A stretch of DNA of 39,356 nt from Shigella phage SFP21B, in the sequence record OQ031073; one strand, given 5' to 3'. Position numbers and translations under genes: made by a program. Shown in pieces: positions 1 through 1,357 of the stretch. Below the pieces are notes generated by a model that ran no database searches, was not told the origin of the DNA, and worked only from the letters and a program-made list of their open reading frames with translations. The stretch's first letter is position 1. Every line of letters starts with the position of its first letter.

Positions 1-1050
1 ATGGCAAACGTTCCGGGTCAGAAAATTGGTGCAGACCAAGGTAAGGGCAAATCTAGTGCAGACCAGCTCGCACTGTTCCTTAAGGTCTTCGCTGGTGAAG
101 TCCTGACAGCTTTCACCCGTCGTTCTGTTACCGCTGACAAGCATATTGTCCGCACCATTCAGAACGGTAAGTCCGCACAGTTCCCGGTAATGGGTCGCAC
201 CTCTGGTGTGTATCTGGCTCCGGGTGAGCGCCTGAGCGATAAGCGTAAGGGCATCAAACACACCGAGAAGGTTATCACCATTGATGGTCTGCTGACCGCT
301 GACGTGATGATTTTCGACATCGAAGACGCTATGAACCACTACGATGTGGCTGGCGAGTATTCCAACCAGTTGGGCGAGGCGCTGGCTATCGCTGCTGATG
401 GCGCTGTACTGGCTGAGATGGCGATTCTGTGTAACCTCCCGGCTGCATCCGACGAGAACATCGCTGGTCTGGGCAAGGCGTCCGTGCTGGAAGTTGGTAC
501 TAAAGCAGACCTGAACACTCCAGCCAAGCTGGGTGAGGCGATTATCGGTCAACTGACCATCGCACGTGCTAAGCTGACTGCCAACTACGTGCCTGCTGGC
601 GACCGCTACTTCTACACCACCCCTGACAACTACTCCGCGATTCTGGCGGCTCTGATGCCTAACGCTGCTAACTACGCTGCGCTGATTGACCCTGAGACGG
701 GCAACATCCGTAACGTAATGGGCTTCGTTGTGGTTGAAGTTCCTCACCTGACTCAGGGCGGTGCTGGTGAAACTCGTGGTGACGATGGCATCTCCATTGC
801 TTCCGGTCAGAAACACGCATTCCCGGCTACCTCCAGCCCTACCGTTAAGGTTGCTCTGGACAACGTTGTGGGCCTGTTCTCTCACCGTTCTGCCGTTGGT
901 ACTGTTAAGCTGCGTGACTTGGCGCTGGAACGTGACCGCGACGTCGATGCTCAGGGCGACCTGATTGTCGGTAAGTACGCTATGGGTCACGGCGGTCTGC
1001 GTCCAGAAGCGGCAGGCGCACTGGTTTTCAAGGCAGCGTCAGCGGGTTAA
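1..1050 (+). CDS. 10A: major capsid protein (gene 10A)
   Basis: 349 aa, collinear with T7 gp10A as remembered (LALFLKVF, KHTEKVITIDGLLTADV, AANYAALIDPE, SAVGTVKLRDLALER, AMGHGGLRPEAAG); strong Shine-Dalgarno (SD) supplied by the window end (AGGAGAATTATCAT|ATG). Confidence 0.97.
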   Translation: MANVPGQKIGADQGKGKSSADQLALFLKVFAGEVLTAFTRRSVTADKHIVRTIQNGKSAQFPVMGRTSGVYLAPGERLSDKRKGIKHTEKVITIDGLLTADVMIFDIEDAMNHYDVAGEYSNQLGEALAIAADGAVLAEMAILCNLPAASDENIAGLGKASVLEVGTKADLNTPAKLGEAIIGQLTIARAKLTANYVPAGDRYFYTTPDNYSAILAALMPNAANYAALIDPETGNIRNVMGFVVVEVPHLTQGGAGETRGDDGISIASGQKHAFPATSSPTVKVALDNVVGLFSHRSAVGTVKLRDLALERDRDVDAQGDLIVGKYAMGHGGLRPEAAGALVFKAASAG

Positions 1051-1313
1051 TGACCTTTAAGGCCCTCTCTACAGAGGGTCCTACCTTAGAGACATACAGT
1101 TCTACGGTGGGAACCAGCTTGAAGGTTGACTTCCCTGAGCTTTCAGACGTGACCGATTGGTCGCTGCTTGAGGTGACTACGCCTGATGGTGTTAGCTACT
1201 CCCGTAGAACCAACAGTCTCTACTTCAAGGCCACCTCTGGCGTGGAAGGTCTGGTGATTGTTGGGTATGACGGTACGCCTGTGCGTTCCTTCAACGTATC
1301 TTTCACAAACTAA
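1..1313 (+). CDS. 10B: minor capsid protein 10B, predicted product of -1 programmed frameshift near 1023-1029 continuing in the -1 frame to TAA at 1311-1313
   Basis: G GTT TTC heptamer at 1023-1029 in the 10A frame, same as the T7 gene 10 slip site; -1 frame open for ~94 codons past it (ORF 1050..1313 is the tail of that frame). Confidence 0.55.
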
Positions 1314-1316
1314 TTG

Positions 1317-1357
1317 AAACCCCTTGGGTGCCTTCGGGTGCTTGAGGGGTTTTTTGC
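1317..1357 (+). terminator. rho-independent / phage RNAP terminator (T-phi-like) after capsid gene
   Basis: AACCCCTTGGGTGCCTTCGGGTGCTTGAGGGGTTTTTTG: GC stem ACCCCT/AGGGGT followed by T6; near-identical in form to T7 T-phi. Confidence 0.85.

What the first reader, a model, noticed from the sequence alone, without database searches (positions are those of the whole stretch)
1023..1313. T7-type -1 frameshift signal at the end of the capsid gene
The heptamer G GTT TTC sits at 1023-1029 in the 10A frame, 21 nt before the 10A stop, and the -1 frame stays open for ~94 codons to TAA at 1311-1313, immediately before the terminator hairpin. This predicts a longer minor capsid protein (~437 aa) alongside the 349-aa major form, as in T7 10A/10B.
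Basis: partly seen in the sequence, partly recalled or inferred. Interest (0 to 1): 0.45.

Follow-up and report, generated by a model that had tools for sequence, protein, structure and literature searches.

The report
T7-type capsid gene −1 frameshift

Summary
G GTT TTC lies at 1023-1029 in the capsid (gene 10A) frame, and the -1 frame is open from 975 to the TAA at 1311-1313, four bases before a T7 Tphi-like terminator. The predicted products are 349 aa and 437 aa (36.4 and 46.0 kDa).

- All 55 loci with a homologous -1 extension encode Val-Phe as GTT TTC, although neighbouring synonymous sites vary.
- In 19 loci with no extension, the Val codon is mostly GTC, GTG or GTA.
- The ATG at 1050, which could start an independent 87-aa ORF, is ACG in most of the closest relatives and has no Shine-Dalgarno sequence.
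- The extension is under purifying selection (dN/dS 0.18 at dS 0.92).
- It is predicted to fold as a 7-strand Ig-like beta-sandwich.

The window is a Kayfunavirus-like phage. The same frameshift is established in T7, used for display in K1F, shown by mass spectrometry in Kvp1, and annotated as a joined CDS in phage Peacock, which carries the same 94-aa extension.

The modest additions are that the extension belongs to no Pfam family and that it is usually annotated as a separate truncated "hypothetical protein". No stimulatory RNA element could be established.

The parts
1..1050 (+). Gene 10A, major capsid protein, 349 aa, 0 frame, stop TAA at 1048-1050
   Evidence: ORF list. Pfam Gp10A-like, E 1e-104, covers residues 60-342. 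PDB matches: 9vvq E 5e-210 and T7 10A 2xvr E 7e-144.
1023..1029 (+). Slip site G GTT TTC (X XXY YYZ type with G_GU, as in T7). tRNA-Phe can re-pair from UUC to UUU; tRNA-Val re-pairs from GUU to GGU at 2 of 3 positions.
   Evidence: Sequence. It is the only copy in the window. T7 has the identical heptamer in the identical frame. GTT and TTC are each 55/55 in loci with a -1 extension, while neighbouring codons vary.
1029..1313 (+). -1 frame extension of the predicted minor capsid protein (10B-like): 94 codons plus TAA at 1311-1313. The fusion protein is 437 aa, 46.0 kDa.
   Evidence: Translation. dN/dS 0.18 against L012 at dS 0.92. PHROG 7473, E 7e-37. The domain occurs in 454 phage records.
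1029..1085 (+). Linker part of the extension (QGSVSGLMTFKALSTEGPT), low-confidence and probably flexible. It contains the non-conserved ATG at 1050-1052, which overlaps the 0-frame TAA.
   Evidence: AF2 pLDDT is about 50 for residues 1-19. The ATG is replaced by ACG, AAC, AAT or similar in 26 of 29 family members.
1086..1310 (+). Predicted Ig-like beta-sandwich domain (extension residues 20-94, seven strands)
1062..1082 (+). Local RNA hairpin GGCCCUCU-CUAC-AGAGGGUCC, starting 32 nt after the slip site and 11 nt after the 0-frame stop; role unknown
   Evidence: Folds. This is the most stable 36-nt stretch near the slip site compared with capsid-gene blocks. No cross-family consensus structure was found.
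1317..1356 (+). T7 Tphi-like transcription terminator (AAACCCCTTGGGTGCC-TTCG-GGTGCTTGAGGGGTTTTTT), starting 4 nt after the -1 frame stop. Its CCCC lies at 1320-1323, 291 nt 3' of the slip site.
   Evidence: Terminator scan and fold. The same motif follows the -1 stop in all relatives that carry an extension. The T7 record marks Tphi at the homologous place.

Best explanation
Programmed -1 ribosomal frameshifting of the T7 gene 10 type. Most ribosomes translating the capsid mRNA read through G GUU UUC and terminate at UAA 1048-1050, giving the 349-aa major capsid protein. A minority slip back one base at the heptamer, with tRNA-Phe moving from UUC to UUU and tRNA-Val from GUU to GGU. These continue with CAA at 1029 in the -1 frame for 94 more codons to UAA 1311-1313.

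The result is a 437-aa minor capsid protein with the complete HK97-fold capsid body, a flexible linker of about 19 residues and a C-terminal Ig-like beta-sandwich. This protein would co-assemble into the shell and display the Ig-like domain on the capsid surface in a minority of subunits.

Shown here:
- the slip site, the frames and the open -1 ORF;
- conservation of the slip site at synonymous positions;
- purifying selection on the extension;
- absence of a conserved start codon;
- the predicted fold of the extension.

Inferred from T7, K1F and Kvp1:
- that slippage actually happens;
- its efficiency (about 10% in T7);
- incorporation of the long form into virions.

Inferred only by analogy with other phage Ig-like domains: a surface-adhesion role.
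For: 1. Sequence anatomy is confirmed.
2. T7 carries the same heptamer, in the same frame, at the homologous Val-Phe codons, and its record annotates a joined 10B CDS.
3. In 84 related loci, GTTTTC is present in 55. Of these, 52 have a recognisable -1 extension: 29 of the window type, 22 of the T7/K1F type and 1 Big_2. The other 3 have disrupted copies. None of the 29 loci without GTTTTC has a window-type or T7-type extension.
4. Codon table: Val is GTT 55/55 and Phe is TTC 55/55 in loci with an extension, whereas the Ala and Gly codons just upstream vary (GCG 25/GCA 24/GCT 6; GGT 30/GGC 24). Loci without an extension use GTC 10, GTG 3, GTA 2 and GTT 2 for Val.
5. The extension is coding: dN/dS is 0.18-0.45, and the 112-codon open run exceeds every -1 run inside this genome's ORFs.
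6. There is no independent initiation signal. ATG 1050 is absent in 26 of 29 family members and has no SD. The first alternative start in the closest relatives is a GTG at extension codon 27, inside predicted strand 1. Gene callers give 54-87-aa ORFs with inconsistent starts.
7. The Pfam capsid domain ends at residue 342, exactly at the slip site.
8. Literature: Atkins et al. 2016 list T7 gene 10 as X_XX = G_GU (PMC5009743). T7 10B is made in about 10% of translations (PMC1635266). K1F gene10b is made by -1 frameshift and tolerates GFP fusion (PMC6277420). Mass spectrometry of Kvp1 Gp10B shows -1 shifting at TTTTCA (PMC2579914).
9. Phage Peacock (95.6% identical here, same 94-aa extension) is deposited with a joined minor capsid CDS.
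Against: - There is no protein-level evidence for this phage, or, as far as I could find, for this particular (window-type) extension.
- No canonical stimulator exists 5-9 nt 3' of the slip site. The nearest stable structure starts 22-32 nt downstream, and there is no consensus structure across subfamilies.
- The heptamer is a weak one (G_GU) and is not enriched in the genome.
- The 84 loci are phylogenetically related, so the codon correlation overstates the number of independent events.
- Two relatives (L024, L025) have C GTT TTC, so re-pairing of the P-site tRNA at the first position is not conserved.
Confidence: 0.9

Rival explanations
1. The -1 ORF is an independent small gene (87 aa). 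It would start at ATG 1050-1052, which overlaps the capsid stop (TAATG), and be translated by termination-reinitiation coupling. The product would be a free decoration protein rather than a capsid fusion.
For: The window does have TAATG, and T7 has the same overlap. Many GenBank records annotate a separate 'hypothetical protein' or 'minor capsid protein' ORF here.
Against: - The ATG is ACG in 9 of the 11 closest relatives and absent in 26 of 29 family members, and no SD-like sequence precedes it.
- The residues upstream of every possible start are conserved as protein (TF.A/TLK motif).
- Annotated starts differ from record to record (1119 in SFP20 and Dev2; products of 54-87 aa), and such starts would cut predicted strand 1.
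- This model does not explain why GTT TTC is fixed only when the ORF is present.
Confidence: 0.05
2. A frameshift does occur, but at another site closer to the stop. For example, P-site slippage of tRNA-Gly on C GGG U (GGT 1045-1047) could occur while the UAA is in the A site, by analogy with the lysyl-codon sites next to the stop in T3-like phages.
For: T3 and phiYeO3-12 are reported to shift at lysyl residues near the stop (PMC2579914). Relatives with Big_2 extensions have A_AAG or C_CCA_AAG just before the stop and lack GTTTTC.
Against: The last sense codons before the stop are not conserved among phages with the window-type extension (GGT, GGC, CCG, GCG, GTC), and most offer no re-pairing. 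GTTTTC is invariant in all of them. There is no A_AAG in the window.
Confidence: 0.03
3. There is no recoding. Either the open -1 frame is a relic or an assembly artefact, or the long form arises from transcriptional slippage on the T run.
For: Three relatives carry disrupted extensions (L016, L019, L035), so the extension can be lost.
Against: - The same frame arrangement recurs in hundreds of independently sequenced genomes.
- The extension is under purifying selection and gives a confident fold.
- By general knowledge, a run of four T is far shorter than the homopolymers known to cause RNA polymerase slippage.
Confidence: 0.02

Closest known systems
Bacteriophage T7 gene 10A/10B programmed -1 frameshift (Condron, Atkins & Gesteland 1991; reviewed in PMC5009743)
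   Same: - Homologous capsid gene.
- Identical heptamer G GTT TTC at the homologous Val-Phe codons a few codons before the 10A stop.
- A TAATG overlap.
- The -1 ORF ends just before a Tphi-type terminator containing the CCCC motif.
   Different: - The extension is 94 aa and predicted to be an Ig-like domain. The T7 tail is 56 aa, low-complexity and not Ig-like, and there is no sequence similarity.
- The terminator is 291 nt from the slip site, against about 215 nt in T7.
- The complementarity test for long-range pairing did not exceed background in the window.
Escherichia phage K1F gene10b (type species of Kayfunavirus; PMC6277420, PMC13370021)
   Same: Same genus-level lineage: capsid about 95% identical, same heptamer and same terminator. 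The frameshift product is accepted as the minor capsid protein and is used for display.
   Different: K1F has the short T7-like extension of 44-48 codons ('LTPQQKAARTRAAN'), whereas the window has the 94-aa beta-domain. The two cargo types are exchanged within one genus.
Kluyvera phage Kvp1 Gp10B (PMC2579914)
   Same: -1 shift at TTTTCA, demonstrated by MALDI MS/MS of the larger capsid band. The authors also found no canonical stimulator.
   Different: I did not compare the Kvp1 extension with the window directly. It was reported as 42.1 kDa, smaller than the 46.0 kDa predicted here.
T3 / phiYeO3-12 10B and other Ig-like domains appended by frameshifting (Fraser et al. 2006 class, as summarised in PMC5009743)
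   Same: An Ig-like domain is added to the C-terminus of a capsid protein in a minority of subunits through a -1 frameshift. Such domains are proposed to act as accessory adhesion modules.
   Different: - T3-type phages are reported to shift at lysyl codons next to the stop.
- In this comparison, the extensions that follow A_AAG-type sites just before the stop carry Pfam Big_2 domains.
- The window domain matches no Pfam family and shows no profile similarity to those Big_2 domains (hhalign probability 0.3%).

Membership tests
T7-type gene 10A/10B -1 programmed ribosomal frameshift | The host gene is a homologue of the T7 major capsid gene 10 | tested here: met
   Pfam Gp10A-like, E 1e-104. 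T7 10A structure 2xvr, E 7e-144.
T7-type gene 10A/10B -1 programmed ribosomal frameshift | Heptamer G GUU UUC in the 0 frame a few codons before the 10A stop | tested here: met
   At 1023-1029, in the correct frame and six codons before TAA. It is aligned with the T7 heptamer and invariant in 55/55 relatives with an extension.
T7-type gene 10A/10B -1 programmed ribosomal frameshift | An overlapping -1 ORF that is open from the slip site, is coding, and lacks its own initiation signal | tested here: met
   Open from 975 to 1310. dN/dS 0.18-0.45. The ATG is not conserved and has no SD.
T7-type gene 10A/10B -1 programmed ribosomal frameshift | A distant 3' stimulator involving CCCC in the 5' arm of the Tphi terminator (PMC5009743) | tested here: inconclusive
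   A Tphi-like terminator with CCCC is present at 1320-1323 and conserved in all relatives. Its complementarity to the slip-proximal region is no better than to capsid-gene background. Function cannot be tested in silico.
T7-type gene 10A/10B -1 programmed ribosomal frameshift | Two capsid proteins with a common N-terminus are present in virions | not testable with these tools
   Needs SDS-PAGE and mass spectrometry. It has been shown for T7, K1F (GFP display) and Kvp1.
T7 10B-type C-terminal extension (sequence family 'LTPQQKAARTRAAN') | Sequence homology of the extension to the T7/K1F 10B tail | tested here: not met
   The window extension belongs to a different family ('VTDWS...RRTNSLYFK', PHROG 7473).
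Pfam Big_2 (PF02368) bacterial Ig-like domain | A significant match to the Big_2 profile | tested here: not met
   No Pfam hit for the window-type extension. hhalign against the Big_2 capsid extensions gives probability 0.3%. The profile search of PDB sequences was empty.
Ig-like beta-sandwich fold (structural class) | A seven-strand two-sheet sandwich resembling solved Ig-like domains | tested here: met

The most novel reading that the evidence does not exclude
A stable hairpin recurs 14-35 nt 3' of the slip site, with unrelated sequences in the different lineages. In 11 of 15 lineages, including T7, it is at least as stable as nearly every comparable block of the capsid gene. This hairpin could be a conserved frameshift stimulator at a non-canonical spacing. 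That might help explain the long-unexplained 3' requirements of T7 gene 10 frameshifting. Separately, the window-type extension would be an undescribed Ig-like capsid adhesin family shared by Kayfunavirus, Przondovirus and Pectobacterium phages.
Probability: 0.15. Interest if true: 0.45.

Novelty: already known. Interest (0 to 1): 0.2.

Why it matters
The main value is for annotation. The window-type extension occurs in 454 deposited phage genomes. In most of the records listed or opened it is called a separate, variably truncated "hypothetical protein" rather than the C-terminus of a frameshifted minor capsid protein.

It also shows that one conserved slip site serves exchangeable cargo in T7-like phages: a short T7/K1F-type tail, the window-type Ig-like domain, or a Big_2 domain. 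That is relevant to phage display engineering and to ideas about capsid-mediated adhesion. It does not change the current understanding of frameshifting.

Tried and rejected
1. Independent ORF from ATG 1050. Rejected on conservation.
2. An alternative shift site at the last sense codon. Rejected because those codons are not conserved.
3. A canonical 3' stimulator. The single-sequence fold gives a structure starting 22 nt downstream (z -2.5). RNAalifold across three subfamilies gives essentially no consensus (-0.9 kcal/mol). Comparing the window-type hairpin with L012 shows only one-sided changes, so there is no covariation evidence.
4. Long-range pairing of the terminator 5' arm (CCCC) with the slip-proximal 80 nt. 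For the window, 44% of capsid-gene background blocks pair at least as well. This gives no support, although T7, L026 and K1F score well.
5. An upstream SD-like stimulator. Only an AGG lies 6 nt upstream, and it is not conserved among relatives (GCAGGC versus GCTGGT). Not pursued.
6. Rfam search of 950-1400. Only chance-level hits were found.
7. Pfam, and a profile search of PDB sequences, for the extension. Nothing was found. A profile-profile comparison with the Big_2 extensions was negative.
8. The original Condron 1991 and Sipley 1991 papers are not in the held library. T7 details are therefore taken from the reviews and papers cited.
9. A clustering script for phylogenetic independence timed out and was not repeated.

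Full report
**What is in the sequence.** The window is a complete T7-like phage genome of about 39 kb, rotated to start at the capsid gene. The region 900-1400 is 99-99.8% identical to Shigella phages ESh23 and SFP21A and Cronobacter phage Dev2, and 95-98% identical to many Kayfunavirus genomes.

The ORF 1..1050 encodes a 349-aa protein. It matches Pfam Gp10A-like at E 1e-104 and the solved T7 10A capsid protein at E 7e-144.

In its frame the codons read CTG GTT TTC AAG GCA GCG TCA GCG GGT TAA. The heptamer G GTT TTC therefore occupies 1023-1029, six codons before the stop.

The -1 frame carries a stop on average every ~41 nt through the gene. It is then open from 975 to 1310 and ends at TAA 1311-1313. 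A shift after Phe343 gives a 437-aa, 46.0 kDa protein against 36.4 kDa. A Tphi-like terminator (AAACCCCTTGGG...GAGGGGTTTTTT) starts four bases after that stop. Every factual element of the finding is correct.

**Is it more than chance?**
- The heptamer alone is not. It occurs once on both strands against 4.1 expected.
- The open frame is. Among 833 stop-free runs in the -1 frame inside this genome's + strand ORFs the longest is 90 codons and the median is 8, whereas this run is 112 codons.
- The decisive evidence is comparative, from 80 related capsid loci in IMG/VR plus three GenBank records fetched with flanks and K1F.
- GTTTTC is present at the homologous Val-Phe codons in 55 of 84 loci. 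Of these, 52 have a recognisable -1 extension. The other three (L016, L019, L035) have obviously disrupted copies.
- None of the 29 loci without GTTTTC has a window-type or T7-type extension.
- In the 55 loci, Val is GTT 55/55 and Phe is TTC 55/55, while the fourfold-degenerate codons just upstream vary freely (Ala GCG 25/GCA 24/GCT 6; Gly GGT 30/GGC 24).
- In the 19 loci with no extension, Val is GTC 10, GTG 3, GTA 2 and GTT 2.
- This synonymous constraint, tied to the presence of the -1 ORF, is what a functional slip site predicts. The loci are related, so these counts are not independent events.

**The extension is coding and has no start of its own.**
- Against a relative with saturating synonymous divergence (L012, dS 0.92), dN/dS is 0.18. 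Against the two more distant subfamilies it is 0.2-0.45.
- The window's ATG at 1050 overlaps the capsid stop (TAATG) and could in principle give an independent 87-aa product. That codon is ACG in 9 of the 11 closest relatives and is absent in 26 of 29 family members.
- Nothing SD-like precedes it. The next candidate start in the closest relatives is a GTG at extension codon 27, which lies inside the first predicted beta strand.
- Automatic gene callers give products of 54, 63, 64, 68, 75 and 83-87 aa for this ORF in different genomes. GenBank records start it at different places.
- The Pfam capsid domain ends at residue 342, exactly at the slip site.

**What the extension is.** It hits PHROG 7473 (function unknown, E 7e-37) and no Pfam family.

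AlphaFold2 with a 17-sequence alignment gives pLDDT of about 90 for residues 20-94 as seven beta strands. A low-confidence linker of 19 residues precedes them.

It is not detectably related in sequence to the Big_2 domains that other T7-like phages append to their capsid protein (hhalign probability 0.3%). No solved structure contains it.

By tblastn the domain occurs in 454 phage records, always next to the capsid gene in the records examined. These are Kayfunavirus-type phages of Escherichia, Salmonella, Enterobacter, Citrobacter, Shigella and Cronobacter, plus Klebsiella phages (285 records, including Przondovirus K11 and KP32 isolates) and Pectobacterium phages.

**Mechanism.** T7 has the same heptamer in the same frame at the homologous codons, and its reference record joins 10A to the -1 ORF.

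Atkins et al. list T7 gene 10 as an X_XXY_YYZ site with X_XX = G_GU. They note an unexplained requirement for a CCCC in the transcription terminator more than 200 nt downstream (PMC5009743). Frameshifting in T7 is about 10% (PMC1635266).

In the window, tRNA-Phe can re-pair perfectly from UUC to UUU. tRNA-Val can re-pair from GUU to GGU at two of three positions (read from the sequence, combined with general knowledge of anticodons).

I could not establish a stimulator:
- There is no structure at the canonical 5-9 nt spacing. The MFE structure of 1030-1130 begins 22 nt downstream (z -2.5).
- RNAalifold across the three subfamilies finds essentially nothing.
- The terminator's 5' arm pairs with the slip-proximal 80 nt no better than with random capsid-gene blocks.

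One feature does recur. In 11 of 15 lineage representatives, T7 included, the most stable 36-nt stretch within 76 nt after the slip site is as stable as, or more stable than, nearly every comparable block of the capsid gene. The sequences are unrelated (folds). Its distance from the slip site (14-35 nt) is not canonical, and its role is open.

**Comparison with what is known.** This is the T7 10A/10B device.
- In K1F, the type species of the genus, gene10b is produced by a -1 frameshift that adds 44 codons. A GFP fusion to it yields stable fluorescent phage (PMC6277420; also PMC13370021).
- Kvp1 Gp10B was shown by MS/MS to arise by a -1 shift at TTTTCA (PMC2579914).
- Phage Peacock, 95.6% identical here and carrying the same 94-aa extension, is deposited with a joined minor capsid CDS.
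- Appending Ig-like domains to capsid proteins by frameshifting is a described theme (PMC5009743; bioRxiv 10.64898/2026.06.25.734500).

What differs from T7 and K1F is only the cargo: a folded 75-residue Ig-like domain instead of a short low-complexity tail. The same slip site serves three unrelated cargo types among close relatives.

**Verdict.** The finding is already known in kind and in this genus. Its residual value lies in correcting a widespread annotation error and in noting a domain family that Pfam does not cover. Direct protein evidence for this phage is missing, and the tests are listed under next steps.

Noticed in passing
L038, L043, L044, L051, L052, L056, L071, L074, L079, L082 (last ~15 nt of the capsid gene, about 2490-2540 in each locus): Ten relatives lack GTTTTC but have a -1 frame Big_2 Ig-like extension (Pfam E 1e-8 to 3e-18). 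Each has A_AAG or C_CCA_AAG one or two codons before the capsid stop. This fits the report that T3-type phages shift at lysyl codons, so there is a second, independent slip-site solution in the same gene.
   Followed up: partly
L062 1233-2678 (IMGVR_UViG_3300034349_000001): The capsid gene ends with G GTT TTT, and the -1 frame stays open for 475 codons. The extension starts with a Big_2 domain (Pfam E 5e-11). The remaining ~390 residues have no Pfam match. They contain motifs that by eye resemble an SGNH-type hydrolase (FIHCGTNN, DGTHSN), but this is not confirmed. It may be a very large frameshift-appended capsid cargo.
   Followed up: partly
window 1044-1105; equivalent +14..+60 nt after the slip site in L011, L013, L024, L026, L042, L054, L063, L077 and T7 (L085 1100-1140): A strong local hairpin recurs shortly after the slip site and capsid stop in most lineages, although the sequences are unrelated. 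It is more stable than almost all blocks of the capsid gene in 11 of 15 representatives. It is not at the canonical stimulator spacing, and its function is unknown.
   Followed up: partly
L024 and L025, 2511-2517: Two phages with a window-type extension have C GTT TTC instead of G GTT TTC (Leu codon CTC). Re-pairing of the upstream tRNA at the first position is therefore dispensable, and the conserved core is GTTTTC.
   Followed up: no
L016 (~2660), L019 (stop region 2542), L035 (~2588): Three relatives keep GGTTTTC but have a disrupted extension: an internal frameshift, a 1-nt deletion at the stop, and a premature stop. These may be sequencing errors, or evidence that the long form is dispensable, as I recall 10B being non-essential in T7.
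   Followed up: no
L032 2493-3197 and L075 2493-3185: [quoted passage not shown] This gives apparent 224-228-codon 'extensions'. It is probably a coincidence of frame, but it would mislead an ORF-length screen.
   Followed up: no
window 1-39356: GGTTTTC occurs only once on both strands, against 4.1 expected from dinucleotide shuffles; 99 of 100 shuffles have at least one copy. This may be mild avoidance of the slippery heptamer elsewhere. It is not significant on its own.
   Followed up: no
GenBank records under window 1050-1313 (e.g. OQ031076 1119-1313, NC_023558 22088-22282, MN715150 22172-22366, PP889482 25097-25351; ON528733 36014-36513): Annotation of this ORF is inconsistent. In the records examined it appears as separate truncated CDSs called 'hypothetical protein', 'minor capsid protein' or 'major head protein'; Peacock is the only one examined that joins it to gene 10. 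The best-matching record, ESh23, lists unrelated 'nonfunctional Ocr' features under the match.
   Followed up: partly
window 1; OQ031074.1 and OQ031076.1: The window starts exactly at the capsid ATG, as do the deposited Shigella phages SFP21A and SFP20, where the match coordinates are identical. The genome is therefore rotated relative to the T7 convention, and the real ends and terminal repeats lie inside the window.
   Followed up: no
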